A DNA stretch of 64,000 nucleotides. It comes from an uncultured archaeon. Lineage in GTDB: Archaea; Aenigmatarchaeota; Aenigmatarchaeia; CG10238-14; SCSR01. Shown here one piece after another: positions 24,399 to 59,788 of this stretch. Position 1 is the first letter of the stretch. Each line of letters starts with the position of its first letter. The position numbers were made by a program, and so were the translations under genes. Under the pieces are notes generated by a model, which had not been told where the DNA came from, did not search any database, and was given only the letters and a program-made list of their open reading frames with translations. The stretch is taken from assembly GCA_964366355.1 (NCBI GenBank), contig CAYITO010000001.1:2459-66458 (forward strand), given 5' to 3'.

Positions 24399-24974
24399 TT
24401 ATTTTACAATTTCCAACTTCAAAATACCGTTCTTGAATTGTCTGTCCACATACGCATTAGCTGGGACAGGTAACAGCTTAAAATAGCCTTTGTTGCCAGC
24501 AGCTGCTCTTATCTCAATGCTTTGTTCCAGCTGCTTTATCTGGACATCTTCCTCTTTGACATCTGGCAAGTTGATTGTAATTATCTGCTTTTTGCCAACA
24601 TGCTGTATCTTGGTCTCAGGTTCTTCGGTAAATTCTGGAATTCTAATCTCCCTTTTACCTTCGAACACAGGTTCTTTAACAGGAAATCTATGTTCGTGAT
24701 GTCTGTGGCCGGCAGATGTTTTGACCTCAACCCTAGGCTGGATGCCTGTGCCTGATGTTATTGTAATGCTTACGCCCCTTGCAGGAGACTTTAATCTAAA
24801 TCTCGGAAATCCCAAATTTCCCTCGAGCGTTTTATTGATCATTTCCATTTCCCTGCCGATATTTTTGTAATCACCGAAACTCTTCCCCAGCAAATCAACC
24901 CCGCAATTCGGGCAGAAATTCCATTTGTCCTTTGTCTCAACATTACAGTTTTTGCATTTCTTTTTCCAAAACAT
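24399..24974 (-). CDS. Small heat shock protein (Hsp20/alpha-crystallin) with N-terminal Zn-ribbon
   Basis: N-terminus CKNC..CPNC, C-terminus ..FKNGILKLEIVK, typical of an sHSP ACD. Confidence 0.7.
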   Translation of the reverse strand: MFWKKKCKNCNVETKDKWNFCPNCGVDLLGKSFGDYKNIGREMEMINKTLEGNLGFPRFRLKSPARGVSITITSGTGIQPRVEVKTSAGHRHHEHRFPVKEPVFEGKREIRIPEFTEEPETKIQHVGKKQIITINLPDVKEEDVQIKQLEQSIEIRAAAGNKGYFKLLPVPANAYVDRQFKNGILKLEIVK

Positions 24975-25010: not shown

Positions 25011-25466
25011 TTATCGAATTTTAATCTCTTTGCCAGCCTTCTTCTTTTCCTTCTTAGGCAGCCTGACTACAAGCGAGCCATTTTCAAACTCAGCCTCCGC
25101 TTTTTTATAGTCGACCTCTACAGGCAGGGTCATGAATTTCCTGAATGTGCCCAACCTTCTCTCAGCCCTATAAACGTCTCTAGCCTTCTCAATTTTACTT
25201 TCTTTATGGCTTGCAGAAATCTCGACGGTTCTTTCAGTCACTTTCACTGCAATCTCGTCTTTGTTGAACTGCGGAAGATAGGCTTTTACCACAACATCTT
25301 CATCCGTCTCGCCAACATCGATAAAATCAAACATTCCAGTAATATCTTTCATCGGCATGCCTTCCATGCTTTCTGACATCATTTTTGCAAACAATTTTTT
25401 CATCCTCTTCAATTCAGAAAAGTTCTCGTCCCAAACCATACAATCACCACTAATAGTAAGAATCAA
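25011..25466 (-). CDS. Small heat shock protein Hsp20
   Basis: ..AEFENGSLVVRLPKKE.. ACD C-terminal motif, with ..YRAERRLGTFRKFMTLP.. Confidence 0.8.
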   Translation of the reverse strand: MILTISGDCMVWDENFSELKRMKKLFAKMMSESMEGMPMKDITGMFDFIDVGETDEDVVVKAYLPQFNKDEIAVKVTERTVEISASHKESKIEKARDVYRAERRLGTFRKFMTLPVEVDYKKAEAEFENGSLVVRLPKKEKKKAGKEIKIR

Positions 25467-25480
25467 ATTTTATAAATATA

Positions 25481-25669
25481 TTAAGTAAGTGTCTGAATCT
25501 TTTTTCCTTTGAAGAGCGCCTTGCCGCCAGTCGGGAGAACCAACTCTTCTTCGCAATTTAGGCATTTCACAACCATTGAAGCCTTGCTGAATATAATCTG
25601 CTCATTCTTGCATTTGCGACAAAGCAATTTTATGAATCGCGATTCCGGAGCAGTTATTATCTCTTTCAT
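25481..25669 (-). CDS. rps27e: 30S ribosomal protein S27e (eS27)
   Basis: ..FIKLLCRKCKNEQIIFSKASMVVKCLNCEEELVLPTGGKA.. C4 Zn finger eS27. Confidence 0.85.
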   Translation of the reverse strand: MKEIITAPESRFIKLLCRKCKNEQIIFSKASMVVKCLNCEEELVLPTGGKALFKGKKIQTLT

Positions 25670-25950
25670 CCCTTCACCAGTTCAAGCTTCTTTACCCTAA
25701 AACCAGCACCGTGCATATGTTTCTTACCACATACAGAACATTTAAACCTCAAATCAACTTTTCTTGTGGGCTTCTCCCTTCCTTTCGGATTCTCCTTAGG
25801 AAAGCTTCCATATCCCAGCATCTTCCTTAAGAAGCGCCTCTGGCCCTGCGCCATCGTTCTTCTAGTCTTCTTCTTTGCCAACTCTGCGGTATGCGGCGTG
25901 TGTTTCTTGCAAAATAGACAGTATATATTGAGTTCCTTCGGGAATTTCAT
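25666..25950 (-). CDS. rpl44e: 50S ribosomal protein L44e (eL42)
   Basis: ..YCLFCKKHTPHT..QGQRRF..GYGSFPK..FKCSVCGKKH.. eL42 pattern. Confidence 0.85.
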   Translation of the reverse strand: MKFPKELNIYCLFCKKHTPHTAELAKKKTRRTMAQGQRRFLRKMLGYGSFPKENPKGREKPTRKVDLRFKCSVCGKKHMHGAGFRVKKLELVKG

Positions 25951-25968
25951 TCTTATCAATTGAAAGAT

Positions 25969-26343
25969 TTACTTTAAAAGTATTAAGAGTTTGGGATAAA
26001 ATAGGATTATTCCTACAATCACAGACGCTATCACGGTTATCAGTACTGCGCTTGCCGAAATGTCTTTTACAATTTTTATTGAAGGGTTGTGTTTTTTATC
26101 CACATAATCCGCAAAAATTTCTATTGCAGTGTTGAACGCCTCTGCAGCCAATACGCTTGAAATAATCAGAATCAGTATCAGCCACTCTACTGCACTAAAA
26201 CCAAGATACAAAGCCGCGATAATTGTTGCAATCGCAATTACAAGATGTATCTTGAAGGTATTCTCCGTGCGCGTGACTTCCATTAGTCCTGCCAATGCTT
26301 CCTTGAAGTGTATGTGTCTCACAATTAGAAAATTCAATTTCAA
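25969..26343 (-). CDS. dgkA: Diacylglycerol/undecaprenol kinase (DgkA family)
   Basis: Three TM helices, with ..AAEAFNTAIE..VDKKHNPSIKIVKDISASAVL.. DgkA motifs. Confidence 0.7.
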   Translation of the reverse strand: MKLNFLIVRHIHFKEALAGLMEVTRTENTFKIHLVIAIATIIAALYLGFSAVEWLILILIISSVLAAEAFNTAIEIFADYVDKKHNPSIKIVKDISASAVLITVIASVIVGIILFYPKLLILLK

Positions 26344-26870
26344 GCCTTAAATTCTTCTATCGCGTCTTTTTCCATCAGGACTTTGGCATTATCTTCAGGC
26401 AAGCTTGCAGTATCCCCCTTCTTGAAAGGGCCGTAAGTCTTCATATCGCTTCCGATAAATTCAGGAACATCTTCCTTGAAAATTATCAAGCTGGGTTCCT
26501 TCTTCTCGCCAGCAATTATAGATTTCAACATACCATCCCGCCTTCCCCTTATCAAGCCCACCAAGGAACTGTAGAATATCTTTTCTTCCTGCGTCAAGTT
26601 TTCCGGCGTTATTCTTGTTCGTACATTTATTATCGCAGCATTCAGAATTTTCCTCTCCCGCCTGTTGACTATATCCTCAACCAACCTTTCAACGCCCTTT
26701 ATTTCCAAGAACTCCTTCCTGTCATCATTCGACACCAAGCTTCTTTTATGATCCAGATATGCTGCAATTGCATCGAAGAAATTCTCAGGAAGCCTCGCCA
26801 ATTTTGGCAGTCTTTGCTCTTCCCTTTGTATCTTTCTTATCAGCTCAAAAGTTATGGTTTCCTCTAGCAT
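26340..26870 (-). CDS. GINS subunit (Gins51/Gins15 family), candidate
   Basis: ~177 aa, weak GINS A-domain-like pattern (..LPENFFDAIAAYL.., ..RRERKILNAA..). Sits immediately downstream of the primase gene, the conserved archaeal priS-gins15 arrangement. Confidence 0.5.
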   Translation of the reverse strand: MLEETITFELIRKIQREEQRLPKLARLPENFFDAIAAYLDHKRSLVSNDDRKEFLEIKGVERLVEDIVNRRERKILNAAIINVRTRITPENLTQEEKIFYSSLVGLIRGRRDGMLKSIIAGEKKEPSLIIFKEDVPEFIGSDMKTYGPFKKGDTASLPEDNAKVLMEKDAIEEFKA

Positions 26871-27171
26871 ACCAGTTAATATACAACACCTAAAACGTAA
26901 AAAGCTAACTAAACTGTAGATATTGAACAAAGAGTAATTTTATCTTTACCAAATAGGAAAATGCATTTCGTCTAACGTATGCTATTTACAGAAGCTTTTT
27001 GCCCTCTGGAACGAGGCACGGCAACTCTGCCGAGCGACGAACTGGCAAAAAATTTGGGTGAACGACTGCTTTTCCAACAAGTCAAAGAAAATTTTATCCT
27101 GAGGTATAAGCCACTCTTTAAGTCCCATAATCCCCGATAAATTACTTGTAAACTAAAGTTATAACTCTATT

Positions 27172-28470
27172 CTATCGCGTCTTTTTCCTAGTCCCAGATT
27201 TGTCGGCTTTCGAAATTTTCCTCATAGGATAGCTGATTGGATTCTTGATTCCTTGCGCATGGAGGTCTTTGCATAAGTCATACAGCCCCATGCTTTTGTA
27301 GAAGTTCTCATTGTCGCAGTTTGGCGGAGCCAATATCCTGTCACTTTGCCTGAAGTGCCATCTCAACTGGGAGCGCAGATAGCTGGACCTCAAAGGCGAA
27401 TAGTTCTTTTCATTCCACTCAAAAATCCTTTTTTCCACCTGCTCAGGATTCCAACCCATGTTTCTTAGGAAGTTGATTAGAATGAATAGCGAACGCTTCT
27501 TGCCGTCGCCTATGCCCTCCAAGATTTTTTTGATGCAGGGCGGGAAATAAGTTTCTGGAATGAATCTTGTTCTGTTGAATTCCCTTGTTTTTGGAAGTCC
27601 CTCTTTTTCTTCAACCATGTTTTTGGCAGCCCAGTCCAAAGCTTCTATCACCAAATCTTGAGCATCGCCCTTTGTCTCCGGAATTAAAAATTTCACCTCA
27701 ACCTTTGCATTTTCTGGCAAAGCCTGCTCCTTTTCAAACTTTCTTATATCCTCGGCTTTCAATGGCAAACTAACCAGCAAAGTGCTTTCGTGCAATGAAT
27801 ACGGCAGACGGAACAGATGCCTGCTTTTGAAAATGTCCATGTTGACAATCTTGAACGGGTCTATTTCCTCGTCCTTGATTATTTCATTCAAATTTTTCTC
27901 GCTTCTTCTTGCCAAGTTTTCAAGACTATCCAATGCAATCAGTTCATCCTTCAGCATGTCTTTGATATACCATTTTATGAAATTCGTAACCTTTTCCTGC
28001 AAACCAGGATAAAGCAACTGGATAGGCTGGTAGTTGATAGTCGGAGGCAGTGATTCGAACGGAACACCTATATGAAACCCCTTGCCACCGGAAAATTTCA
28101 AAGAGTAATTTCTCACACCATGATCTTTGAGAGCTTCTATGACAGTTCTTGTGGCGACTTTTGCAATTTCGAAGTCCTTGACGTCCGGATCGAAGAAAAC
28201 GCTCCAGCCCGTTCTCATATTATCCAAGTCCTTTTTAATCATGCCCACTTCCAGTTTCATGGGATTGGACCAGTGCTCGATGCTGCCGTGAAATGCAATA
28301 GCCCCCTCCGACACGGCATTTAGAATATCGCTCGGATACTGCATTATGTCAGGGCGCTTGCCAAAGGCACCACCATTGTAGACCGAGACTACTTCACGGT
28401 TATTCGAAACTTCTAGAATTGCTTTTTGTACAGATTCTTTAGAATACCAGTTGTAGGCTTTTTGCAGCAT
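27172..28470 (-). CDS. DNA primase, fused small (PriS catalytic) and large (PriL C-terminal-like) subunits
   Basis: PriS motifs ..FFDPDVKD.., ..FSGGKGFHIGV.., ..MDIFKSRHLFRLPYSLHEST.. in the N-terminal part. The C-terminal part has ..YFPPCIKKILEG..DGKKRSLFILINFLRNMGW.., the FPPC PriL signature. Confidence 0.8.
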   Translation of the reverse strand: MLQKAYNWYSKESVQKAILEVSNNREVVSVYNGGAFGKRPDIMQYPSDILNAVSEGAIAFHGSIEHWSNPMKLEVGMIKKDLDNMRTGWSVFFDPDVKDFEIAKVATRTVIEALKDHGVRNYSLKFSGGKGFHIGVPFESLPPTINYQPIQLLYPGLQEKVTNFIKWYIKDMLKDELIALDSLENLARRSEKNLNEIIKDEEIDPFKIVNMDIFKSRHLFRLPYSLHESTLLVSLPLKAEDIRKFEKEQALPENAKVEVKFLIPETKGDAQDLVIEALDWAAKNMVEEKEGLPKTREFNRTRFIPETYFPPCIKKILEGIGDGKKRSLFILINFLRNMGWNPEQVEKRIFEWNEKNYSPLRSSYLRSQLRWHFRQSDRILAPPNCDNENFYKSMGLYDLCKDLHAQGIKNPISYPMRKISKADKSGTRKKTR

Positions 28471-28563: not shown

Positions 28564-29982
28564 TTATTTTAATTTCCTCCACTTTACTCCTTCTTTCATG
28601 TCCTCGATAACTATCCCAAACTCTTCCTTCAACCTATTTCTTATCTTATCCGCCATCTTGTAGTCACCTTTCATTCTAGCCTCCTCCCTTTCAGAAATCA
28701 ACCTCTCAGCCTCTCTCGATAATTTCTCCTCTTTCAGGGCATCCTTCAAATCCAAACCAAGCACTCTATCCAACTCCAAAACTGTTTTAATTACATTCTT
28801 TGCATCAGTCTCGCTAATGGCGTCAGAATTCACCAGCCGGTTTATCCGATTCATAAATTTGAACAATGAAGCCAAAGCATCGTTTATGTTAAGGTTATTA
28901 TCCATAGCGTCATTGAACTCCTTTAAGACCTCAACTATCAGCCTCTTTACGTCTGGATTGTTTTTTTTACCTTTGACATACTTCAAACTCTTCATGAAAT
29001 TGAACAAATTGTCAACAGTCTGCTTGGCTGCATCCAAAGAGCTGAAAGTAAAGTTGAGCTTTTGTTTGAAATTTGCCGACAATAACAAAAACCTGATAAC
29101 CTTTGGATCATACCCTTTGTCCAAAATATCTCTGAGTGTGTAAAAATTCCCCAGAGACTTGCTCATCTTCTGCCCGTCCACAAGCAGATGCTCGCCGTGC
29201 AACCAATAGTCGACAAATTTCTTTCCTGTTGCCGCTTCACTCTGTGCAATCTCATTTTCATGATGCGGGAACATCAAATCAACACCGCCTGTGTGAATGT
29301 CAAATGTCCTTCCCAAATATTTCATGCTCATGGCACTGCATTCTATGTGCCATCCAGGCCTCCCTTTCCCGATTTTTGCATTCCAGAATACGTCACCATC
29401 CTCCTCATCCCAGAATTTCCATAATGCGAAATCTTGCGCTTCCTCCTTGGTATACAAGTCGCTTCTAACTCTCGCGCCAGCCTTCAATCCCTTTAATTTT
29501 ACTTTTGAAAGCTTGCCGTAACTTTTGAATTTAGAAATGTCAAAATAGATTCCGTCAGTAGATTTGTATGCAACTCCCTTCTTGCGTAGAGTTTCTATCA
29601 AGCCTGTCATTTCCTTTATGTGTTCTGTGGCTTTTGGGAAGATATCTGCAGGCAGGATGTTCAGGGATTTCATATCATCAAAAAACGCTTTGGTGTACCT
29701 TTGAGTGAAATCTTTCAATTTGATTCCCTCTTTTCTCGCGCCTTTGATTGTCTTGTCATCGACATCTGTAAGATTCATCACATGCTTTACTTTGAATCCC
29801 CTGTACAGCAGCCATCTTTTAAGCATGTCCTGCCAGACGTAAGTTCTGAAATTCCCGAGATGCGCAAAATCATAGACAGTAGGACCACAGGTATACAACC
29901 CGACTTTTCTATCCTTCAAGGGTTTGAAGACTTCTTTTTTTCTATCCAATGTGTTGAAAATTTTTAGTGTAATATTAACCAT
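28564..29982 (-). CDS. cysS: Cysteinyl-tRNA synthetase
   Basis: ..LYTCGPTVYDFAHLGNFRTY.. (HIGH region), ..KMSKSLGN.., and Zn-binding Cys residues. Confidence 0.9.
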   Translation of the reverse strand: MVNITLKIFNTLDRKKEVFKPLKDRKVGLYTCGPTVYDFAHLGNFRTYVWQDMLKRWLLYRGFKVKHVMNLTDVDDKTIKGARKEGIKLKDFTQRYTKAFFDDMKSLNILPADIFPKATEHIKEMTGLIETLRKKGVAYKSTDGIYFDISKFKSYGKLSKVKLKGLKAGARVRSDLYTKEEAQDFALWKFWDEEDGDVFWNAKIGKGRPGWHIECSAMSMKYLGRTFDIHTGGVDLMFPHHENEIAQSEAATGKKFVDYWLHGEHLLVDGQKMSKSLGNFYTLRDILDKGYDPKVIRFLLLSANFKQKLNFTFSSLDAAKQTVDNLFNFMKSLKYVKGKKNNPDVKRLIVEVLKEFNDAMDNNLNINDALASLFKFMNRINRLVNSDAISETDAKNVIKTVLELDRVLGLDLKDALKEEKLSREAERLISEREEARMKGDYKMADKIRNRLKEEFGIVIEDMKEGVKWRKLK

Positions 29983-36950: not shown

Positions 36951-37529
36951 ATGCTTAAACCAGAGATAAGAATACTAGGTTTTGATGACGGCCCTTTTGA
37001 TTCTAAAACAAAAACCACTCCTGTAGTTGGCGTTGTATATAGGGGAGGCAGGTTCTTGGACGGGATACTTAAAACAGACGTGGAGGTTGACGGACTGGAT
37101 TCTACGCAGAAACTGGAAAAGCTTATTAATTCCAGCAGGCATAAACAACAGTTAAAAGTAATCATGCTAGACGGCATTACGGTAGGCGGTTTTAACATAA
37201 TAGACATAAAACAGCTGCATGAGAACACAAACATCCCTGTGATAGTTTTCAACAGGAAATATCCGGACCTGAATTCTGTAAAAAATGCCTTGGACAATTT
37301 CGTCGATTCTGATTTGAGATGGAACCTGATTAAAAATGCTGGGAAAATAAAGGAATGCAAGCTTGGTGCCGACAAGACAATCTATTACCAGGCGATCGGA
37401 ATGGCGGACGAGGATGTTGAAGATACGCTGCTCTTGAGCTCTACGCACGGAGACATACCAGAACCCCTAAGGGTAGCTCATTTGATAGCGACAGCAATAG
37501 TAAGGGGAGAATCTTATGGACGCGCGTGA
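36951..37529 (+). CDS. UPF0215/DUF99 family protein
   Basis: ..RILGFDDGPF.. N-terminal signature of DUF99. Confidence 0.65.
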   Translation: MLKPEIRILGFDDGPFDSKTKTTPVVGVVYRGGRFLDGILKTDVEVDGLDSTQKLEKLINSSRHKQQLKVIMLDGITVGGFNIIDIKQLHENTNIPVIVFNRKYPDLNSVKNALDNFVDSDLRWNLIKNAGKIKECKLGADKTIYYQAIGMADEDVEDTLLLSSTHGDIPEPLRVAHLIATAIVRGESYGRA

Positions 37530-38386: not shown

Positions 38387-40573
38387 TTACGGCGAAACAA
38401 TCCCAGACGCCGTGTCATTGTATCCTGTTGAGTTTACAGTGACATTTGTTGGATATACCCCGCCGCTAGAATAATTGGTTTCAATTACGATGAACAAGGG
38501 CTCTGTAGTGTTTAATGTCACATCTTGATTGGATGATATGCTTTGGGCATCAGTCTTGAACAGCCATGAAACCGCCCTCTGGCCTATGTTGTTTACTGCG
38601 GTAATTAATTGTATAGTGCTGCCCTGGCTTTCCGAGAATGTGGAATGCTCGGTTATCTCAACCATCTTTACGACGAACCTGTCGACAAGAGAATCGAGGA
38701 AAGAGCCGCTGTATGCGTTTATTGTGTTTGACTTGTTGCCTTGGGTTGTGTAGTTGTGCCTGTGGGAGACATTGGTCGCCCCGCCTCTTGGCAAGGTTGA
38801 GATGTTACTGTTGGTGACGCTAGGATCAGTCATGTTCCAAGAAACAGCCAAGTCCTGCGGCCAGTAGTTCTTGATTGTGAAGTTGGTTGTCCTGTTGGTC
38901 TCCCTCTCCCTATAGCTGTTGTAGTTTTCTATTTCTATAGATTTCAAAGTAAATGTCTCATTGAATCTGTCGCTTAAGCCTCCGGAAGAAACTACTACAG
39001 AAACATTCTTATCTCCCTCCGTTGTGTAGGTTATATCCTGTGTTATTTGTCTTGACTGGTTTGTGGCTAATGTAAGAGAGTTTGAAAAGGTCTGCCCATC
39101 ACTGATGATGTGCCATGTTATCGTAGATGGATAATAGTAATTTGTGATGTTGAACTTTACCAGCCTATTGTTTCCTGATAGCGAGCTCGCATTGTAGTCT
39201 TCTATAGCTATTCCCTTGATTTCAAAATTGATTGTCTTTGAATGGTTGCCATCTGTTGAATTTGCAATGCAAGTGAAAGTCTTCTTCCCTGGCAATGAGT
39301 AATTATAATTAAATGTGATGTTTCTGTATTCCTTGGCAGCCATGGTGAATGAGGAGTTGGACGACCTCCCTTCGCTGCAGTCCCAATTGACGCTTGAAGA
39401 CGCGACATCCATGTCGTTGAATATCTGCAGGCTGAAGTTCACCAAAGTCCTGTCTTGGTTGGGAGTTGACAAGTCCGTTATCTTGATTCCAAACTTTGCA
39501 TTTAGATTTTCAAAATCTACTGAATTGCTTGCTGAGCGTCCAGTGATATTTATCCTGTAGTCTCCTGCGCTGGTGTAGTTGTTCGCGGCTACAACCAATA
39601 TAGATTCGTTGTTCAGGATGTCGAATGCGATTGCTGAATTGACCAGTATGGTGCCGAAGTCTATGCTCCAAGCGCCGCTGGTTGCAGTTGTGTTCTTCTC
39701 GTTAGCAAGGTAGAATTGAATTGTTCTTGTCCTGTTGGTTGAATAGAGCTCTCCTTGGTTGATTACATCTATTCCTGCATCGCCAGTCACTATTTGGAAT
39801 GGCGCATGGACTGGAGTTCCGTTGTAGACGAACTTGGTCGTGTTGATGCTGTTCCTGACAATTTTCAGGATGTTGCCTATTGCATTGTAGGAATAGTAGA
39901 ATGTCTGACCACCTAAGCTGGCATTTACTAGCCTGTCCAAGAAATCATAGGTCATGTTGTACGTCCTGCCGTTTGCCTTGTCGTCTATCACAATGATGTT
40001 GCCAACCTTGTCATAGTAGTAAGTCAGATTTTGTACGCTTCCTGTCCTTATCTGCGCCAGCCTCGCATTCTGGGAGTCGTATGAGAACTCAGTAACCCTT
40101 GTATTTGCATAAGTTCTATTTAGAGGATTGTCGAACGCGTTGTGGAATGTGCTGTTGATAAAATCAATTATTTTTGATATCTTGCTCTGGTTGTTGTAGT
40201 TGTAGTCCGTGGTTATGCCTGGGCTGAGCGTTTGTTTCACCAGCCTGTCCATGGAGTCGTAGTAGTTCCTTTTCTCGAAAATGATTCCGTCTATGGTTCT
40301 AGTTTCTTTAGTTACTCTGAGCTTGTCATCGTATTCGTATTTGAATGTTGAGTTGCTGAAGGTGATGTTGGTTAATGTCCCCTCGTAATCCTTGTCGTAT
40401 GCATAGGTGATGTTTATACTTGTCATGTTTTTCGTAAGTATTCTGTTCAATGCATCGTAGGATATGTTCACTTGGTTTGTTGGGTTGTCGTAGGTGAGAT
40501 TTTGCACAGAGGCTACGGCTAATTGTGGCAATGCTAGCAAAAACAAAATAAAAACTATTGTTTCAGTTTTCAT
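38387..40573 (-). CDS. Secreted YD-repeat protein with tandem Ig/PKD-like, N-glycosylation-sequon-rich C-terminal repeats
   Basis: Signal peptide MKTETIVFILFLLALPQLAVA. N-terminal RHS/YD-type repeats (..YAYDKDY.., ..YYDSMDRLV.., ..YDFLDRLV..). The C-terminal half has ~100-aa internal repeats with very many N-x-S/T. Confidence 0.7.
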   Translation of the reverse strand: MKTETIVFILFLLALPQLAVASVQNLTYDNPTNQVNISYDALNRILTKNMTSINITYAYDKDYEGTLTNITFSNSTFKYEYDDKLRVTKETRTIDGIIFEKRNYYDSMDRLVKQTLSPGITTDYNYNNQSKISKIIDFINSTFHNAFDNPLNRTYANTRVTEFSYDSQNARLAQIRTGSVQNLTYYYDKVGNIIVIDDKANGRTYNMTYDFLDRLVNASLGGQTFYYSYNAIGNILKIVRNSINTTKFVYNGTPVHAPFQIVTGDAGIDVINQGELYSTNRTRTIQFYLANEKNTTATSGAWSIDFGTILVNSAIAFDILNNESILVVAANNYTSAGDYRINITGRSASNSVDFENLNAKFGIKITDLSTPNQDRTLVNFSLQIFNDMDVASSSVNWDCSEGRSSNSSFTMAAKEYRNITFNYNYSLPGKKTFTCIANSTDGNHSKTINFEIKGIAIEDYNASSLSGNNRLVKFNITNYYYPSTITWHIISDGQTFSNSLTLATNQSRQITQDITYTTEGDKNVSVVVSSGGLSDRFNETFTLKSIEIENYNSYRERETNRTTNFTIKNYWPQDLAVSWNMTDPSVTNSNISTLPRGGATNVSHRHNYTTQGNKSNTINAYSGSFLDSLVDRFVVKMVEITEHSTFSESQGSTIQLITAVNNIGQRAVSWLFKTDAQSISSNQDVTLNTTEPLFIVIETNYSSGGVYPTNVTVNSTGYNDTASGIVSP

Positions 40574-40877
40574 ATAAGCCTCTTTTAATCCTCTGACCGA
40601 ACGGGTCGTAGGAGTATTCTTCAACGATTGGGAAAGTTGCGTCTATTTCTACCGAATAGTTTTCCAAAAATATTTCAAATCCGATTAGGTAGTGTGAAAA
40701 GTTGCCGATGGTGTTGTTATCTTTGTCTGCTATAGTTCCTAGAGTTTCGAAGATGGTGAGGTTGGTGGGAAAGGGAAAAGAAGTTTCAGTTGAAGGTTCT
40801 GTATAATCTAATGCCTCAGCTTCTTGTGTAAATAAAATTATTGTTAGAAGTAATGTAAGTAAAAATAACAATCTCAT
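40563..40877 (-). CDS. Small secreted protein ending in an Rhs-like YDPFGQRIK motif (possible Rhs-derived fragment)
   Basis: Signal peptide MRLLFLLTLLLTIILFTQEAEA. C-terminus ..EEYSYDPFGQRIKRG is identical over 9 aa to ..YTYDPFGQRIKIS in the large Rhs protein. Confidence 0.45.
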   Translation of the reverse strand: MRLLFLLTLLLTIILFTQEAEALDYTEPSTETSFPFPTNLTIFETLGTIADKDNNTIGNFSHYLIGFEIFLENYSVEIDATFPIVEEYSYDPFGQRIKRGLYEN

Positions 40878-41476
40878 TTTTTACTCTCCTTTGTAAAATA
40901 ATACTCTATGTTAGAGTCGTAGACTTCTCTAAGTCTGTGAGAGGAATATGTTTTGTCCAAAAGTCCAGTAGCAAAAACTTTTACTAAATGTATAGGATTT
41001 ACTGGTATCTTCCCACCGACTAAAACAGGTTTATGGTAATCTATATCATTTTTAGGTTTCTTGATAAAGTCCCATTTAAGTCCTTTTACATTTTTTCTAA
41101 ATGTTTCACCAAGATACATTCCTATATCGTAACATAAGGAAAGTGTTTCCTTAGACAGGTCTACTTTCGGTATATCCACATGCGGTTTTAAGTGCCCCGG
41201 AATTCCACTCTCAATTTTTTCAATTTCATTTTTAGTCAATTTTCTACTTGTTATGCGTTTTGCAAACCATTCACCTAAATATTTTAGAGACTCTGGAGAA
41301 AAGTTTAGTTTTCTAGGGTCGTATCCAGTATTTTGCGCCGTTTTTTTAAAAATTTCTATCCTTCCCGGTATAGATTTAACAAACCATTTTAGAAATTTTT
41401 CAGCTTCTTTCTCGGACATTTCTTTGAAGCTTCTTTTGATCGGAAATTCTATTAGTTTATAATTTCTTACGGCCAT
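40874..41476 (-). CDS. Candidate Rhs immunity protein (cytoplasmic, no signal peptide)
   Basis: 200-aa ORF overlapping the 3' end of the rhs gene by 10 nt. Position is typical of rhsI immunity genes. No known family recognised. Confidence 0.5.
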   Translation of the reverse strand: MAVRNYKLIEFPIKRSFKEMSEKEAEKFLKWFVKSIPGRIEIFKKTAQNTGYDPRKLNFSPESLKYLGEWFAKRITSRKLTKNEIEKIESGIPGHLKPHVDIPKVDLSKETLSLCYDIGMYLGETFRKNVKGLKWDFIKKPKNDIDYHKPVLVGGKIPVNPIHLVKVFATGLLDKTYSSHRLREVYDSNIEYYFTKESKK

Positions 41477-44400
41477 TTTATTTTCACCTGTGAAACAACA
41501 TACGAAATAGCACCTTTAGTTTGTTCTATTGACTTTTCAAATTCTTTTAATGCACCCCTTGTGAATCCAGACTTTCCAGTTATAGGACTTTCAAATAAAA
41601 CCCACTGTATACTTTTCTTTACACCACTTTGCACTAGTTCTATGTCTTTTGCTATTTGGGCTTTAAAATCTTTTGTTGCAGAAACTCTTCCAACTTTGAC
41701 TTCAAATGCTTTTCCAGTTTGCGGTACTATTACATCTGGAATGCGTTTGCCTTGACTAGTAGATAATGGTTGCTTATTAAGCACTCCTCCTTCTTGCTTA
41801 GCTATTGTGCTTTCTGAGCTTTTGCTTATTTGTTTGTTTATTTCGATTTGTTTGGCTTTTTCAATATTTCTACTAATATCAGTAATTTTACCACCAGAAC
41901 TAATCGCATTAATCCCAGCTTCAGCTCCTTTTACTACAACTCTCCCGCCAGTCAAACCAGGAGCAGCCAACCCGCCTATATCAGCAATCAAAGAACCATA
42001 ATTCCAAAGATTAGTTGGATCATCTTGTATATCCCGTATATCCATAGTTATGAACGCTACATCTACAGCAGATTCTAAGTATTTTCCACAAGGATCCTTG
42101 TACTTGTAAGGGTTGCCTAGCGCATACGAGTACCTATTCAGAAACTGCGGGTTATACGGATTTTGAACTATCGGATCAGGTCGTAACCTCAATCCCCACT
42201 CAGGCTTGTAAGGAACGTTGCAAAGCATGTAAGTGTTGGTTTGGTCTTTGAATTGTCCTGTGTATAACTTCGGGTCGGCAAGACCACCTCCAAGCAACTC
42301 CCCATAAGGCGAGTAGTAACTGTTCTCGACAACATTGCCATTAGAATCAGTAATCAACGTAGTGCTCCCAAGATGGTCTGGATGGTAGAAATATTTACTG
42401 CCATCTGGATTAACTCTCGCAACAAGTATTCCTTCCTGGTATACGTAAGTGAAGTCAAAAGTGCCAGTGGAATTTTTAATTCTCATTAGCTCCTTGAACG
42501 GGATGTATACTGTCGTGTTTGTAGTGTCATTCCTAGAAATCTTTATCCTCTGCCCGAACGGGTCGTATGTATAGTTTTCTAATATTGGTGAACTAGATGT
42601 ACTGCCATTCCTAATTTTTATTAACTGATTCAATCCATCATATTCCCTGTAATATCCATCGCCAGTAACAAGATTGCCCCCACCATTCTGCCTCTGAGTA
42701 ATTAGATTGCCAACAAGGTCGTATGCATAAGTCCAATTCCCCAAATCAGGGTCGCTAAGTGCAATTCTCCTGCCAAGCGAGTCATAAGCGAATGTAAACT
42801 TGTTGCCAAGAGCATCGGTAATCTTGATTAAATTGTCTTGAGTATCATACTCGTAAGAGGTGTTGTAGACTTCCTCGGAAGTTACGTTCAATACTGCATC
42901 TAGGATTGGGTCGTTGTTGTACTCCAAGACATTTGCAATTCTATCGTACCCATCAAGCACGTAAGCTTTCCTGTGGCTGTTCTCGTCGAATGCTGTAATA
43001 GTTCTGTGATTAAATAAAATTGTCTTGTTCGTCCCGTCTGGGTTTCTAACAAAAGTCACTCTACCCAGCACATCAAACGTGTAGTTAGTGTTGTTGACAG
43101 TAGCAGACGGCGTGCTCAATCCAGTACTAAAGCTATCAAAATATGGATTCTGCTCGCTAACAACTCTGCCAAGACTATCATAGAAAAGATTCTTCACAAT
43201 CTGCTGGCTGCCGTCAGCAGGTCTTTTAAATTGAACAAAGTTGGCAAACCCGTCGTAGTAGAAGTAAGTGTCGTAAGTCTTGTTGGCAGTAGTCCTTTGT
43301 GAAACTTTGATTATCTCAGGCGCAACCCCGTCGAATATGTAGGTGTAGTTTTTGGTAGGCAGTTCAAAGCTATCAAACGGCTGCACTTCCTTGGCAATCC
43401 TTCCAAAAACATCATAGTGATAAGAGGTATTCACATCATTCGAAAACTGCCACAATAGGTTCCCAGTACCCAGATCATACTTGTAGTCAGCCCTGTGAAA
43501 TAGCGCATTGGTAACCGCATCAGGATAAGTGAATGTAGTGTCCCTAAAGCCGAAGTTATATCTTACAACCCTTCCAAGAGGGTCTGTCTGCCTAACCACA
43601 TTCCCGAAAGGATCATAATCATACTTGACGACATGCCTTCCCCCAGTGTCAACCCAAGTATCAATTTCTGTTACATCGCCTTTAGTAGCATTCGAACCGT
43701 ATGGCAATCCATCATAAGAATACCTGACATCACCAACTTTGGTGGAATTGTCCGATGAAAATAGTTGATACTGCTTCAGCCTGTCGACAATCCATGAAGT
43801 GCTGTTGACAACATAGGAATACCTCTCGTACTTCTCATCTCCAGTTACATTGACATCGCCAAAGAATACACTCGAGACAAGATTCCCGAAATTGTCGTAT
43901 GAATAAGAGGCATTCGTCACCTTGGCGCCGGTGGAGTTGCCATCATGCAAATAATTAGCCTGCGAAAGAAGGAAAATCTTGAAATAGCCGCTGGTGTTGG
44001 TGAAATTGTACACGCTCTCATCCTTCGAGAAAATGCTGCCCGTGGAATTAAACACCTCTGTCTTGTATTCCGTCCCCCTCCTCGCATCATCCTGGTGGAA
44101 GTAATGGCTTACCAACGAGTTATCAGGCAGCGTCTCGTTCACAACCCCGAATCCCCTAAACTCAAAATCGTCATAATCGTAGCTGGCATTCGCATACGTG
44201 TAATTGAACCTTCCGACAACGCCGAATGCATTGGTCATGGAGTTGTTCTGCGTTGCATTCGCCACGACCCAGACATTGAACCCGATGTCGGAAACGTTAT
44301 TGGTTCCGTTGTTGCCGAATGACGTGGAGGCGGTATAGTTTATCGACTCTATCGCAATAACCCCGCCAAGCTCGTTGACGATGCGCTTGAGCAGGAAAGG

Positions 44401-46383: not shown

Positions 46384-48338
46384 CACGACATTCTGGTATT
46401 TGCAATGAAGTTCTGCACATCGGTTGTGACATTTGCGCTGGTGGTCCTGTTTACCATCTCTAAAACATTCAATGCATTCCCAACACCAGGGACATTCGCA
46501 GGAGTCTGGCTGTCCGTGATGTAGTTGAAGGCCCATATCTGGCTTCCGACCCTTGTTGCCTTGTCGAACCTTCCCAAGTATTGCGAAGTGTTCGTTAGCC
46601 TGACATAGATTTGCTGGTCCGTATAGATAGGGACTGAAGTGCCGAGAGCATTTCTTATGCCGGCTATAATCGCATCCCTTCCGCTACTCTCGCTTAGGTA
46701 TGGAGATGCTGGAGGGTCCCCGCCGCCACTCACGGTAAAGACCGGAGTCATCGTTATCGTAAAAGAAGTGAGGTTGTAAATCCTCGGCTCCCCCACGCCT
46801 GCATTTGAGTTATTGTAGAAATAAATGTCATCATACTCGCAATCTCCCCCCGTTTTTTCAATTCCGAAATATGTGATTCCCGTAGCATCAGTGGTATTGG
46901 AAAAGCTGTGATTCCAACCCACATGCTCGTCTATGCTATTTAACCATGCCTTCCCGTAAAGCCTTTCCTTCAACTCTATTTTCATCATGTACTGGACATT
47001 GGTGCTTGGAAATGGAGCTCCAAATGTCTGTGCTCCCTGGTTATAATCATCAACCGCAAAGAACCCGCCATCTCCACCTACTCCAAACAGCCTTTGACTG
47101 CCTTGAATAGTATTCCCATTGTGGTATATGTCAATTCTGCACCTGTCTCCAGTACTTCTAAGCAACAGCTTTCCATAAGCCCCGACTGTCCCATTAGTTT
47201 TTGGATTGATTGCTGGAATATTCCTTAATGCAAATGCAAATCCAGGGTCACTCCCCATTTTTACAATTTTATTTGAAAAGGTCGGGCTTCCAGTAGTGGT
47301 AAATCCACCTCTGTCTCCTGCATCATAAGTTTCATTAGTTATATACCAAGTAACATTTCCAAAAGTTGTAACCGCTGAATCATTGAACCACACATGAACA
47401 GGATTTGTGTTCATATCAGAGGTTGCCCTGAAATTAATCTGCGTCCTGTTTCCAGATGTCGTGTTGCACCCGCTCAATTCAAGAGTCCCTATTCCGAATT
47501 TAAGAGCCGTATCATTAGCATTGTTGGTTAGTCTTATATCCTGACAGGCATCTCTAATGTCAACAGAAGCATCAAACCCAGAAGCCCTTGCCAGTTCCAC
47601 CCATATCGTCGCATTCTCAACCGAAGCGCTTGTCGATATGCCTATAACCTTGTTGTAATTCTCAAACGTCACAGCCCAATCAAATTTCTTGTACGTCTGA
47701 TTCAAAACTTTCACCGCAGGAATGACATCCCTCTTGTTCAACCCGAGCTGCCTTTTGAAGTATGTTATGTATTGAATCTCGATGTTTTCGTTCGGCTTGA
47801 GCCTTAGTTTTGCCCTCCCGTCCTTTATCTGGGTTATGTTCACCCATCCAGAGTCCACAAGTACCTTGTAGGTTGAGGGATTCCCGTCCACCTGAACCAA
47901 TTGTAGTTCGCTCCAAGTTATCGTTCCGTTAGGGAATGTCTCGGTGTGTGAGATTGTATTTTCAACAACCGTCTTATTTTGTACAACTACTTCCTTCAGG
48001 GTTGTATTTTTAACTAAGATGTCAAATCCGTTGCTTTGTTGAGCCACGCCTTCAAGCAACTCCTCCCATTCAAATTCAAACTCCTGTTCTGTCGGCAATG
48101 GGTTTTTAAGAGTAAATCGAATCGACGAGCCTATCCTGTCGCTCATTTGCTGCTCCCTTCTGACCTCCAACAGTTCAGCAAAGATGCTGTCAGCCGTATA
48201 TGCAGGCTGTGAAAAGACTTGAGATGCTAAAGCCAAGGTTAGCAAAGACGCAATTAGAAAAAAGGCGGTAAAGAATACTGATGCAGAACGGCTTTTCAAT
48301 TCGACTAAGCGCATTATAAATGAATCAAGCACTGTCAA
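46383..48338 (-). CDS. Secreted N/T/G-rich protein of unknown function, stop overlapping the rhs start
   Basis: Signal peptide ..VFFTAFFLIASLLTLALASQVFSQPAYTA. Its stop TGA overlaps the rhs start ATG by 1 nt. Confidence 0.6.
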   Translation of the reverse strand: MTVLDSFIMRLVELKSRSASVFFTAFFLIASLLTLALASQVFSQPAYTADSIFAELLEVRREQQMSDRIGSSIRFTLKNPLPTEQEFEFEWEELLEGVAQQSNGFDILVKNTTLKEVVVQNKTVVENTISHTETFPNGTITWSELQLVQVDGNPSTYKVLVDSGWVNITQIKDGRAKLRLKPNENIEIQYITYFKRQLGLNKRDVIPAVKVLNQTYKKFDWAVTFENYNKVIGISTSASVENATIWVELARASGFDASVDIRDACQDIRLTNNANDTALKFGIGTLELSGCNTTSGNRTQINFRATSDMNTNPVHVWFNDSAVTTFGNVTWYITNETYDAGDRGGFTTTGSPTFSNKIVKMGSDPGFAFALRNIPAINPKTNGTVGAYGKLLLRSTGDRCRIDIYHNGNTIQGSQRLFGVGGDGGFFAVDDYNQGAQTFGAPFPSTNVQYMMKIELKERLYGKAWLNSIDEHVGWNHSFSNTTDATGITYFGIEKTGGDCEYDDIYFYNNSNAGVGEPRIYNLTSFTITMTPVFTVSGGGDPPASPYLSESSGRDAIIAGIRNALGTSVPIYTDQQIYVRLTNTSQYLGRFDKATRVGSQIWAFNYITDSQTPANVPGVGNALNVLEMVNRTTSANVTTDVQNFIANTRMS

Positions 48339-59787: not shown

Positions 59788-59788
59788 A

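What the first reader, a model, noticed from the sequence alone, without database searches (positions are those of the whole stretch)
26340..28470. Single-polypeptide PriS-PriL primase followed by a candidate GINS gene
One 432-aa ORF carries all three PriS catalytic motifs in its N-terminal part and an FPPC-containing PriL-like helical region in its C-terminal part. Fused primases are known from Nanoarchaeum and support a DPANN assignment. The downstream 177-aa gene fits Gins51 only weakly by sequence, but its position matches the conserved priS-gins15 linkage.
Basis: partly seen in the sequence, partly recalled or inferred. Interest (0 to 1): 0.55.

Follow-up and report, generated by a model that had tools for sequence, protein, structure and literature searches.

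The report
Fused archaeal primase beside Gins51
This is the single-chain DNA primase (catalytic PriS domain fused to the Fe-S domain of PriL) that tiny DPANN archaea are already known to use, followed by a clear Gins51 replication gene. It is real but ordinary for this lineage, apart from a probable cysteine-to-histidine swap in the iron-sulfur site.

Summary
The minus-strand ORF 27172..28470 (432 aa) has a PriS-type catalytic domain: Pfam PF01896 scores above its cut-off, and D94/D96, H133, D212 and R217/H218 are invariant. A flexible linker joins it to a ~120-aa PriL C-terminal domain. That domain's profile matches Pyrococcus abyssi PriL at E 1.2e-8 across the FPPC and PPNC…NP motifs. There is no PriL N-terminal domain.

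The downstream gene (26340..26870, 176 aa) is a solid Gins51, not a weak one. Gins51_C scores E 9e-18, and the family profile matches T. kodakarensis Gins51 over its full length at E 7.8e-10.

The contig is from a groundwater Aenigmatarchaeote. Fused primases are a published trait of all DPANN cluster 2 lineages, and the Nanoarchaeum enzyme NEQ395 was characterised biochemically in 2023. The primase–Gins51–L44e–S27e order is part of the published PPsG–LSIN supercluster. So this is a new member of a known kind, of low interest.

One fresh detail emerged. This protein has three cluster cysteines instead of four, plus a C-x3-H motif. In 349 relatives, all 53 three-Cys members carry a nearby His. 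This suggests, but does not prove, 3Cys+1His ligation of the [4Fe-4S] cluster.

The parts
27172..28470 (-). Gene for the single-chain (fused PriS-PriL-CTD) primase, 432 aa plus stop codon
   Evidence: ORF list. Identical 432-aa database protein P0001. Pfam and NCBIfam hits. AF2 model with pLDDT 94.2.
27601..28470 (-). PriS-type archaeo-eukaryotic primase (AEP) catalytic domain plus connecting helix (residues 1-290). It contains no cysteine, so it lacks the Zn-binding motif of canonical PriS.
   Evidence: PF01896 scores above its cut-off. The family profile hits human, yeast and Sulfolobus primase small subunits at E 1.7e-8. Foldseek matches Pri1, Pfu PriS, P. abyssi PriS and Prim-PolC at E ~1e-7. 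Cysteine positions.
28183..28200 (-). Motif I, VFFDPD (D94, D96: metal-binding aspartates)
   Evidence: Translation. D94 and D96 are invariant in 76 diverse and 119 close homologues. NEQ395 D87A+D89A is inactive.
28072..28092 (-). Motif II, SGGKGFH (S127, K130, H133)
   Evidence: Translation. G128 and H133 are invariant. The spacing is the same as NEQ395 S119/K122/H125, whose mutants lose activity.
27790..27837 (-). Motif III region, DIFKSRHLFRLPYSLH (D212, R217, H218, R221, H227)
   Evidence: Translation. R217 and H218 are invariant, and R221 is 99% conserved. D212 is invariant in 119 close homologues. NEQ395 D194, H202 and R205 mutants are inactive.
27571..27600 (-). Flexible inter-domain linker (residues 291-300)
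   Evidence: This is the only low-confidence stretch of the AF2 model (pLDDT <50 at residues 293-297). In NEQ395 the equivalent linker is protease-sensitive, and its length sets primer length.
27175..27570 (-). PriL C-terminal (Fe-S) domain-like helical module plus a basic tail (residues 301-432). It includes K324/R326/F329, which are equivalent to NEQ395 R301/R303/F306.
   Evidence: CTD profile against the PDB: P. abyssi PriL 9f26_B at E 1.2e-8, in two colinear stretches. 35 of 38 family CTDs hit PF04104. CTD-only AF2 model has pLDDT 92.6. Fold matches are to PriX and to yeast, Xenopus and human PriL-CTD. G323 and R326 are invariant, and F329 is 96% conserved.
27535..27537 (-). C312 (FPPC): first [4Fe-4S] ligand
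   Evidence: Conserved in 119 of 119 close homologues and 87% of diverse ones. Aligns with the FPPC of P. abyssi PriL.
27316..27318 (-). C385 (PPNC): second cluster ligand
   Evidence: Conserved in 119 of 119 close homologues. Aligns with the PPNC of P. abyssi PriL.
27259..27282 (-). Remodelled third and fourth ligand segment, Y397-D-L-C400-K-D-L-H404. The canonical 'VC-x-PD-x-x-C' is replaced by a short helix carrying C-x3-H.
   Evidence: C400 is present in 118 of 119 close homologues. The canonical Cys position 397 is Tyr here. H404 belongs to a C-x3-H motif found in 44 of 53 three-Cys members against 4 of 250 four-Cys members. AF2 predicts a helix over residues 397-405. Ligation by His is inferred, not shown.
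26871..27171 (.). 301-nt spacer between primase and Gins51. The proximal 41 nt (26873-26913) are conserved with the nearest relative and probably form the Gins51 promoter/5' region. The remaining ~260 nt are lineage-specific.
   Evidence: The same gap appears in three independent assemblies. No Pfam, Rfam or folding signal.
26340..26870 (-). Gins51 (GINS15) gene, 176 aa. A-domain: residues 9-106 (26553-26846). B-domain: residues 128-170 (26361-26489).
   Evidence: PF22090 at E 9.1e-18 and PF05916 at E 5.2e-6. Homologues are named Gins51 or GINS. The family profile matches T. kodakarensis Gins51 3anw_A at E 7.8e-10 over its full length, against Gins23 3anw_B at E 0.13.
25481..25959 (-). Ribosomal protein genes L44e (25666-25959) and S27e (25481-25669). 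They are the 'LS' part of the conserved replication-translation supercluster.
   Evidence: Pfam. The same order primase-Gins51-L44e-S27e occurs in relative L001/L002. Berthon et al. 2008, PMC2643942.
25969..26343 (-). Prokaryotic diacylglycerol-kinase-family gene inserted between Gins51 and L44e. It is context only, not part of the replication module.
   Evidence: PF01219 at E 1.9e-30. Absent at this position in L001/L002.
28564..29982 (-). Cysteinyl-tRNA synthetase, the conserved upstream neighbour of the primase
   Evidence: Pfam. CysRS also lies upstream of the primase in L001/L002.

Best explanation
The 432-aa gene encodes the chromosomal replicative primase of a groundwater Aenigmatarchaeote (DPANN). 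It is in the single-chain form in which the PriS catalytic domain is covalently tethered to the PriL C-terminal domain.

Mechanism, inferred by homology to the characterised Nanoarchaeum equitans enzyme NEQ395:
- The N-terminal AEP domain binds the catalytic metals (D94, D96, D212) and the elongating NTP (H61, S127, K130, H133, H218, R221). It makes the phosphodiester bonds.
- A connecting helix (residues 271-284) and a flexible linker of about 10-15 residues hold the ~120-aa PriL-CTD module close by.
- That module supplies the site for the initiating nucleotide and the 5' end of the primer (K324, R326, F329). This allows de novo dinucleotide synthesis and, through tether length, primer-length counting.
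- The PriL N-terminal scaffold domain is dispensable because the tether replaces it.
- The enzyme is expected to act as a monomer and to make short RNA primers.

The CTD most likely still binds a [4Fe-4S] cluster. Three cysteines (C312, C385, C400) would do this, with His404 as the probable fourth ligand in place of the missing canonical cysteine.

The gene 301 nt downstream encodes Gins51 (A-B domain order), the GINS subunit of the archaeal CMG-like helicase. Primase, Gins51, L44e and S27e together are a remnant of the pan-archaeal PCNA-PriS-Gins15 / L44E-S27E-aIF2alpha-Nop10 supercluster.

Shown here: domain identities, motif conservation, fold, taxonomic placement and synteny.
Inferred: enzymatic activity, monomeric action, cluster ligation, and a separate promoter for Gins51.
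For: - Domain identity: Pfam and NCBIfam hits. Profile hits to solved PriS and PriL chains. 35 of 38 CTDs hit PF04104.
- Structure: high-confidence AF2 models, with fold matches to AEP primases and to PriX/PriL-CTD.
- Conservation: the catalytic and initiation residues equivalent to those shown essential in NEQ395 are invariant (PMC10250227).
- Family breadth: 2301 relatives, and at least 596 species genomes, all DPANN-type where they are credibly labelled.
- Literature: the fusion is a synapomorphy of Undinarchaeota plus DPANN cluster 2, which includes Aenigmarchaeota (PMC7414124; PMC3914693).
- Core-gene synteny: CysRS-primase-Gins51-L44e-S27e in this window and in relatives. A Gins51 homologue lies within the fetched flanks of 53 of 82 primase loci, nearly always immediately downstream on the same strand in Aenigmatarchaeota.
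- Gins51 identity.
- Cluster retention with His: C312, C385 and C400 are conserved in 118-119 of 119 close homologues. All 53 three-Cys family members have a His in the tail segment, against 80 of 250 four-Cys members. C-x3-H occurs in 44 of 53 against 4 of 250. Sister clades carry C-x2-C or CC...H in the same short segment.
Against: - No activity data exist for this protein or for any Aenigmatarchaeota primase.
- The window cannot show that separate priS and priL genes are absent from the rest of the genome.
- PF04104 falls just below its gathering score for this sequence (21.6 against 22.4 bits).
- Fold matches of the isolated CTD are weak by E-value (best 0.085), and the best one is the cluster-free PriX.
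- One canonical cluster cysteine is missing. The equivalent single mutant of NEQ395 (C376A) lost the cluster in vitro yet stayed active, so this protein could be cluster-free.
- The His/Cys co-variation is dominated by one Aenigmatarchaeota subclade, so the Fisher p-values overstate independence.
- The 301-nt spacer means co-transcription with Gins51 is uncertain.
Confidence: 0.9

Rival explanations
1. The C-terminal module has lost its Fe-S cluster. It would then work as a PriX-like, metal-free helper domain that still supports initiation.
For: - Only three of the four canonical cysteines remain.
- The best fold match of the isolated CTD is the cluster-free PriX.
- NEQ395 single Cys mutants lose the cluster but keep, or even gain, primase activity.
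- 21 of 349 family members have replaced all the cluster cysteines, so cluster loss does occur in this family.
Against: - The three remaining cysteines are conserved in 118-119 of 119 close homologues. In truly Cys-less lineages, all positions drifted together to Y, F, S, A or T.
- Every three-Cys member carries a nearby His, mostly as C-x3-H.
- Sister clades restore a fourth Cys in the same short segment, as C-x2-C or CC. That pattern suggests selection for four ligands.
Confidence: 0.3
2. The gene is a primase-polymerase of a plasmid, virus or integrated element, like pTN2 PolpTN2 or pRN1 ORF904. On this reading it is not the cellular replicative primase.
For: - PriS-PriL-like fusions are known on archaeal plasmids (PMC3973330; PMC3914693).
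- There is a sub-threshold Pfam hit to LigD_Prim-Pol (23.0 against 27.4 bits).
- The top Foldseek hit is mycobacterial Prim-PolC.
- Three of 38 family CTDs weakly hit PriCT_1.
Against: - The gene sits between CysRS and Gins51/L44e/S27e, in a core-gene order conserved across relatives.
- No integrase or other mobile-element genes were found among the flanking ORFs that were scanned.
- The family is present in at least 596 species-level genomes.
- Raymann et al. found the pTN2 fusion unrelated in sequence to the DPANN primases.
- NEQ395 is the only primase of N. equitans.
- Foldseek scores for PriS/Pri1 and Prim-Pol are equivalent, so they only indicate the AEP fold.
Confidence: 0.03
3. The downstream 176-aa gene is Gins23, or is not a GINS protein at all.
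For: The only NCBIfam hit is the Gins23 model (44.6 bits, cut-off 120). Precomputed Pfam lists PF27418 GINS23_N as weak.
Against: - Gins51_C hits at E 9.1e-18.
- The domain order is A then B, which defines Gins51/Sld5/Psf1 (PMC2861644).
- The family profile matches T. kodakarensis Gins51 over its full length at E 7.8e-10, against Gins23 at E 0.13.
- The Gins23 hits fall on the shared helical A-domain.
- Homologues are annotated Gins51 or GINS.
Confidence: 0.02

Closest known systems
NEQ395, the monomeric primase of Nanoarchaeum equitans (Schneider, Bergsch & Lipps 2023, PMC10250227)
   Same: Both are a single chain of PriS catalytic domain, connecting helix, protease-sensitive or low-confidence linker, and a compact PriL-CTD. 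Neither has a PriL-NTD. The functional residues are the same: DxD, S/K/H of motif II, D...H..R of motif III, R-x-R...F in the CTD, and the FPPC and PPNC cysteines. The sizes are similar (393 against 432 aa).
   Different: Relatedness rests on family-level evidence and the literature. NEQ395 has four cluster cysteines (C289, C364, C376, C384). The window protein lacks the third and has C-x3-H on a remodelled segment. The host is a mesophilic groundwater Aenigmatarchaeote, not a hyperthermophile.
Canonical heterodimeric archaeal/eukaryotic primase PriS-PriL (e.g. P. abyssi 9f26, S. solfataricus 1zt2/5of3, human 4rr2)
   Same: The AEP catalytic fold and motifs are the same. The PriL-CTD motifs FPPC...PPNC...C..C..NP..Y are colinear with P. 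abyssi PriL.
   Different: The two functions sit on one polypeptide. The PriL N-terminal domain is absent, as are the PriS Zn-binding motif (no Cys in residues 1-311) and the helical insert. The CTD is about 120 aa, against about 180 aa in eukaryotes.
PriX of Sulfolobus solfataricus (4wyh, 5of3)
   Same: It is the best fold match to the isolated C-terminal module (probability 0.96-0.98, TM about 0.6 on the target). It is a small helical initiation-helper domain derived from PriL-CTD.
   Different: PriX has no Fe-S cluster and is a separate subunit. The window domain keeps three conserved cysteines, and its sequence profile matches PriL rather than PriX.
Gins51 of Thermococcus kodakarensis (3anw_A; C-terminal domain 5ghr_B)
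   Same: The profile match covers the full length (E 7.8e-10). The A-B domain order is the same, and the B-domain core Y-G-P-F-x-x-G-D is conserved.
   Different: The identity is low, and the inter-domain linker is shorter. Whether the organism also has a Gins23 is unknown.
PPsG-LSIN supercluster (Berthon et al. 2008, PMC2643942)
   Same: PriS(-L), Gins51, L44e and S27e lie on one strand in the published order.
   Different: PCNA lies about 31 kb away on the other strand (59756-60541). aIF2alpha and Nop10 do not follow S27e. A DAGK-family gene and a 301-nt spacer are inserted.

Membership tests
AEP catalytic subunit PriS (PF01896) | Motif I hhhDhD/E (metal-binding aspartates) | tested here: met
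   VFFDPD at residues 91-96. D94 and D96 are invariant in all alignments.
AEP catalytic subunit PriS (PF01896) | Motif II sxH | tested here: met
   G131-F132-H133. H133 is invariant.
AEP catalytic subunit PriS (PF01896) | Motif III hD/E followed by the nucleotide-binding R/H residues | tested here: met
   M211-D212, then R217-H218 and R221. D212 is invariant in 119 close homologues. In the diverse set the loop length varies, so that column is less clean.
AEP catalytic subunit PriS (PF01896) | Score at or above the Pfam gathering threshold | tested here: met
   30.8 bits against 26.8.
AEP catalytic subunit PriS (PF01896) | AEP fold | tested here: met
   AF2 pLDDT is 94.2. Foldseek E ~1e-7 to human Pri1, Pfu and P. 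abyssi PriS, and Prim-PolC.
Canonical (heterodimeric) PriS | Zn-binding Cys/His motif in the catalytic subunit | tested here: not met
   There is no cysteine in residues 1-311. That the Zn motif is a feature of canonical PriS is from my own knowledge. It is not a feature of the DPANN fused family.
PriL C-terminal Fe-S domain (PF04104, C-terminal part) | Sequence-profile match to PriL | tested here: met
   For this sequence alone the score is 21.6 bits against a cut-off of 22.4, which is borderline. The family CTD profile matches P. abyssi PriL at E 1.2e-8, and 35 of 38 members hit PF04104 with a best E of 1.1e-9.
PriL C-terminal Fe-S domain (PF04104, C-terminal part) | Four cysteines ligating a [4Fe-4S] cluster | tested here: not met
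   Only C312, C385 and C400 are present. The canonical third position is Y397. His404 is a candidate substitute. Actual cluster binding cannot be tested with these tools.
PriL C-terminal Fe-S domain (PF04104, C-terminal part) | Basic and aromatic residues that bind the initiating NTP / 5' primer end | tested here: met
   K324, R326 and F329 align with NEQ395 R301, R303 and F306 by their spacing from the FPPC cysteine. R326 is invariant and F329 is 96% conserved.
PriL (full-length large subunit) | N-terminal domain that binds PriS | tested here: not met
   No PriL-NTD-like region exists. PriL matches start at about residue 261-272. A linker of about 10-15 residues joins the domains.
DPANN cluster 2 / Undinarchaeota fused primase (NEQ395 family) | PriS catalytic domain and PriL-CTD in one ORF | tested here: met
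   Full-length homologues cover 95-100% of the query.
DPANN cluster 2 / Undinarchaeota fused primase (NEQ395 family) | Host is a DPANN cluster 2 archaeon | tested here: met
   The best named relatives are Candidatus Aenigmatarchaeota. The window carries archaeal core genes: S4e, L44e, S27e, A-type ATPase and PCNA. Aenigmarchaeota are placed in cluster 2.
DPANN cluster 2 / Undinarchaeota fused primase (NEQ395 family) | It is the only primase in the genome, and it has monomeric primase activity | not testable with these tools
   Only a 64-kb window was available, and there is no biochemistry.
Gins51 (GINS15) | A-domain (helical) followed by B-domain (A-B order) | tested here: met
   PF05916 covers residues 9-106 and PF22090 covers residues 128-170. 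The definition of the order is from PMC2861644.
Gins51 (GINS15) | Closer to solved Gins51 than to Gins23 | tested here: met
   3anw_A at E 7.8e-10 against 3anw_B at E 0.13.
Gins51 (GINS15) | NCBIfam equivalog-level match | tested here: inconclusive
   No Gins51 model was reported. There was only a sub-threshold Gins23 hit on the A-domain (44.6 against 120 bits).

The most novel reading that the evidence does not exclude
A subclade of Aenigmatarchaeota, this organism included, may ligate the primase [4Fe-4S] cluster with three cysteines and one histidine. The His sits in a C-x3-H motif on a remodelled short helix. To my knowledge this ligand set has not been described for any primase.

Sister clades use C-x2-C or CC...H in the same segment. 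Other DPANN lineages have replaced all four cysteines. Together these would form a natural allelic series for testing whether the primase cluster is a redox switch or merely structural.
Probability: 0.35. Interest if true: 0.5.

Novelty: new member of a known kind. Interest (0 to 1): 0.2.

Why it matters
The finding mainly confirms known biology.

- The fused primase is a marker trait of DPANN cluster 2 and supports the taxonomic assignment of the contig.
- The primase–Gins51–L44e–S27e order extends the replication–translation supercluster to Aenigmatarchaeota.
- These proteins are still labelled 'hypothetical protein' in the public records listed, so a correct annotation is a practical gain.
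- The only forward-looking aspect is the natural variation of the Fe-S ligands in this family: four Cys, three Cys plus His, or none. The role of the primase [4Fe-4S] cluster is disputed (redox switch or structural). In vitro, NEQ395 and Sulfolobus variants prime without it. Naturally His-ligated and cluster-free monomeric primases would be convenient test cases.

Tried and rejected
- Single-sequence search against PDB sequences gave nothing significant (best E 0.064, an NHEJ polymerase). Profiles were needed.
- The exact-sequence contig look-up for the primase failed. The source was recovered through the Gins51 protein instead.
- The 301-nt spacer was examined as a possible gene or RNA. Its 48-codon ORF (26982-27128, minus strand) reminded me of the N-terminus of DUF47/PhoU-like proteins. 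It has no Pfam hit even at E 10 and no relative in 85 loci. Rfam found nothing at E<=1, and folding is no better than shuffles (z -0.29). I rejected the DUF47-remnant idea as unsupported.
- Regex-based classification of the cysteine motifs misparsed 'CNP'/'CSP' as the KNP anchor. It was replaced by an HMM-alignment-based census.
- Naming the taxa of the Cys-less primases by cluster look-up gave no usable names.
- The bacterial-type promoter/terminator scan is uninformative for an archaeon.
- Model coordinates are not exposed, so Cys/His distances could not be measured.
- The third protein-database search, the metagenome scan and the viral scans were not used, because they would not change the verdict.


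Full report
**Observation**

The finding's coordinates are exact. On the minus strand, 27172..28470 is a 432-aa ORF starting with ATG. A protein identical over its whole length is in the public collection (P0001). I checked each by translating the stated coordinates:
- VFFDPD: residues 91-96.
- SGGKGFH: residues 127-133.
- DIFKSRHLFRLPYSLH: residues 212-227.
- FPPC: ends at C312.

The downstream gene is 26340..26870 on the same strand. It is 176 aa from its ATG. The mechanical ORF list extends it to a TTG (196 aa), but the database protein P0270 is exactly the 176-aa version.

**Identity of the primase**

Pfam gives PF01896 (DNA primase small subunit) at 30.8 bits, above the 26.8 cut-off, over residues 100-238. 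It gives PF04104 (large subunit) at 21.6 bits, just below 22.4, over residues 261-345. Several NCBIfam PriL equivalog models match residues 272-424 at E about 5e-6.

A 91-sequence family profile (A1) hits human, yeast, Xenopus and Tetrahymena primase small subunits at E about 2e-8. It also hits P. abyssi PriL and S. solfataricus PriS.

An AlphaFold2 model built on that alignment has mean pLDDT 94.2. Its only disordered stretch is residues 293-297, so the protein is two rigid domains joined by a flexible linker. Foldseek against the PDB returns AEP enzymes at E about 1e-7: mycobacterial Prim-PolC, human Pri1, P. furiosus and P. abyssi PriS, and LigD polymerase domains. This establishes the fold but cannot separate AEP clades.

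**Identity of the C-terminal module**

The domain-only model has pLDDT 92.6. Its fold matches are all weak by E-value. The best are S. solfataricus PriX (4wyh and 5of3; E 0.085-0.18, probability 0.96-0.98). Next come the Fe-S domains of yeast, Xenopus and human PriL.

PriX is a cluster-free variant of PriL (PMC10250227), so this match does not point to an unrelated domain. The sequence evidence decides for PriL:
- A 38-sequence CTD profile (A3) matches P. abyssi PriL (9f26_B) at E 1.2e-8 in two colinear stretches.
- One stretch is over lFPPC..L.G. The other is over PPNCD...C.PD..C...NP..Y, which holds the remaining cluster cysteines.
- 35 of the 38 CTDs individually hit PF04104 (best E 1.1e-9). 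Three hit PriX and three hit PriCT_1.

There is no counterpart of the PriL N-terminal domain.

**Conservation and mapping onto the characterised enzyme**

In 76 diverse and 119 close homologues, D94, D96, G128, H133, R217 and H218 are invariant. R221, H61, S127, Y224 and S225 are nearly so. D212 is invariant among close homologues.

These correspond by spacing to NEQ395 residues H58, D87/D89, S119, K122, H125, D194, H202 and R205. Mutation of these abolishes or reduces activity; K122A, at a less conserved position, only halves it. In the CTD, K324, R326 and F329 correspond to NEQ395 R301, R303 and F306. Those mutants still elongate but fail to initiate (PMC10250227).

NEQ395 has these properties:
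- It is a monomer.
- It needs its two domains in cis.
- It makes primers of about 9 nt.
- It primes at triplets with a central T.
- It changes primer length when its linker is shortened.

I therefore infer the same mechanism here. The link is through the family and the literature.

**Taxonomy and prior knowledge**

The best relatives are Candidatus Aenigmatarchaeota MAGs: 81% identity for JACQIA010000066, and 55-63% for many others. Woesearchaeota, Pacearchaeota and Nanoarchaeota follow at 38-44%. Identical Gins51-bearing contigs come from Hainich well H51 0.1-µm groundwater assemblies. The rest of the window carries archaeal core genes, including S4e, L5, SerRS, enolase, A-type ATPase subunits, PCNA and endonuclease dU.

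The fusion has a clear publication history:
- It was first noted in N. equitans (Iyer et al. 2005, as cited in PMC3914693).
- It was then found in Parvarchaeota and Nanohaloarchaeota (PMC3914693).
- The enzyme was characterised biochemically in 2023 (PMC10250227).

The kind is therefore known, and this is another member. Public records still call these proteins 'hypothetical'.

**Gins51 and gene order**

The 176-aa protein hits Gins51_C at E 9.1e-18 (residues 128-170). It hits the GINS helical domain PF05916 at E 5.2e-6 (residues 9-106), both above their cut-offs. A-then-B order defines Gins51 (PMC2861644).

A family profile (A4) matches T. kodakarensis Gins51 (3anw_A) over its full length at E 7.8e-10, and the Gins51 C-terminal domain (5ghr_B) at E 3.3e-6. 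Gins23 (3anw_B) scores only E 0.13. The sub-threshold NCBIfam Gins23 hit lies on the shared A-domain. Homologues are annotated GINS or Gins51.

In a relative with a 60%-identical primase, the order is CysRS, a 180-aa gene on the opposite strand, primase, Gins51 (44 nt later), L44e, S27e, then a Zn-ribbon protein. PCNA lies 6 kb upstream.

An iterative search found a Gins51 homologue in the fetched flanks of 53 of 82 primase loci. It is nearly always immediately downstream on the same strand in Aenigmatarchaeota, and less often so in Woesearchaeota-labelled loci. There it may be absent from the flank or too divergent to detect.

This is the published PriS–Gins51 adjacency. It is also part of the PCNA-PriS-Gins15 / L44E-S27E-aIF2α-Nop10 supercluster (PMC2643942). 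In the window, a DAGK-family gene is inserted between Gins51 and L44e. aIF2α and Nop10 are not present after S27e.

**The one unusual detail: the Fe-S ligands**

The protein has only three cysteines in total: C312, C385 and C400. Most family members have four, in the pattern FPPC … PPNC-x11-C-x-PD-x-x-C-x2-[IV]KNP. That pattern is colinear with P. abyssi PriL.

In the window protein the last part reads GLYDLCKDLHAQGIKNP. The canonical third cysteine position is Tyr397. The Pro-Asp turn is gone, and AF2 predicts a helix over residues 397-405. Cys400 is followed by His404.

I ran an HMM-alignment census of 349 family members. The set has some redundancy, because it combines database representatives with genome loci.

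| Class | Members | His in the tail segment | C-x3-H |
|---|---|---|---|
| Four-Cys | 250 | 80 | 4 |
| Three-Cys | 53 | 53 | 44 |
| Five-Cys | 12 | 2 | 0 |
| Cys-less | 21 | – | – |

The remaining 13 aligned rows fall into other minor classes.

Further observations:
- The Fisher p-values are 8e-23 for His presence and 3e-39 for C-x3-H. They overstate independence, because most three-Cys members form one Aenigmatarchaeota subclade.
- The same C-x3-H motif appears in a Woesearchaeota-labelled genome at 39% identity (L076). Other Cys/His arrangements appear in P0121, P0138 and P0150.
- Within Aenigmatarchaeota, the same short segment carries C-x2-C (for example L016, L017, L022, L028, L031) or CC…H (22 members, all with His).
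- C312, C385 and C400 are conserved in 118-119 of 119 close homologues.

I read this as selection to keep four ligands, with His404 as the fourth in this lineage. It remains an inference. The NEQ395 C376A mutant, at the equivalent position, lost its cluster in vitro and was still active, so a cluster-free protein is a live alternative (about 0.3).

**Spacer**

Primase and Gins51 are 301 nt apart here, against about 40 nt in the nearest relative. Only the 41 nt next to the Gins51 start are conserved with that relative, so they probably form the Gins51 promoter/5' region.

The remaining ~260 nt are specific to this lineage. They are reproduced identically in three independent assemblies. They contain a 48-codon ORF with no Pfam hit, no relatives among the fetched loci, no Rfam match and no unusual folding. 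I leave this region unexplained.

**Verdict**

This is the expected replicative primase and Gins51 of an Aenigmatarchaeote, a new member of a known and biochemically characterised kind, in a known gene neighbourhood. Interest is low (0.2). The probable 3Cys+His cluster site, and the family-wide ligand diversity, are the only elements that might repay experiments.

Noticed in passing
window 26871-27171 (ORF 26982-27128, minus strand): A 301-nt spacer lies between primase and Gins51, where the nearest relative has about 40 nt. About 260 nt are lineage-specific and are identical in three independent groundwater assemblies. They hold a 48-codon ORF (MGLKEWLIPQDKIFFDLLEKQS...). No Pfam or Rfam match, no relatives in the fetched loci, and no folding signal.
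   Followed up: partly
window 38387-48338, minus strand (41467-46536, 38387-40624, 46383-48338): A 1689-aa protein carries SpvB, FG-GAP, TcdB-middle and RHS/YD-repeat domains (Tc-toxin/RHS-like). It is flanked by a 745-aa RHS-repeat protein and a 651-aa protein with no Pfam hit. GC rises to 0.46-0.50 against about 0.40 elsewhere, which suggests horizontal acquisition. This is unusual cargo for a small DPANN genome.
   Followed up: partly
proteins P0151, P0164, P0172, P0194, P0203, P0211, P0213, P0217, P0222, P0223, P0234, P0236, P0252, P0253, P0255, P0257, P0258, P0260, P0261, P0264, P0268: 21 of 349 fused-primase relatives have replaced all the Fe-S cysteines (FPPC becomes FPP[A/S/T]; PPNC becomes PPN[Y/F/W]; no Cys in the tail). 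These are natural cluster-free PriL-CTD modules. Their taxa could not be named.
   Followed up: partly
proteins P0139 (962 aa), P0144 (934), P0180 (942), P0195 (1019), P0206 (883), and many of 480-560 aa with two matched stretches: Some family members are much longer, or match in two or three separated stretches. This suggests inteins, insertions or N-terminal fusions in the fused primase of other DPANN lineages.
   Followed up: no
window 25969-26343, minus strand: A prokaryotic diacylglycerol-kinase-family gene is wedged between Gins51 and L44e, and its mechanical TTG-start ORF (25969-26343) overlaps the Gins51 stop by 4 nt. It is absent at this position in relative L001/L002.
   Followed up: partly
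window 59756-60541 (+) PCNA; 36951-37529 (+) endonuclease dU (PF01949): In relative L001, PCNA and the endonuclease dU gene lie within 6 kb upstream of the primase. Here they are 9 and 31 kb away on the other strand, so the PCNA-PriS-Gins cluster has been broken up in this lineage.
   Followed up: partly
loci L004, L015, L069, L074, L077; proteins P0069, P0253, P0320: Contigs and proteins that carry this DPANN-type fused primase or its Gins51 are labelled Gammaproteobacteria, 'bacterium', Methanosarcinales, Heimdallarchaeota or Nitrospiraceae in public records. These are probably mis-binned or mislabelled DPANN contigs.
   Followed up: no
window 24399-24974 and 25011-25466, minus strand: [quoted passage not shown] The Zn-ribbon protein is also found after S27e in relative L001.
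   Followed up: no
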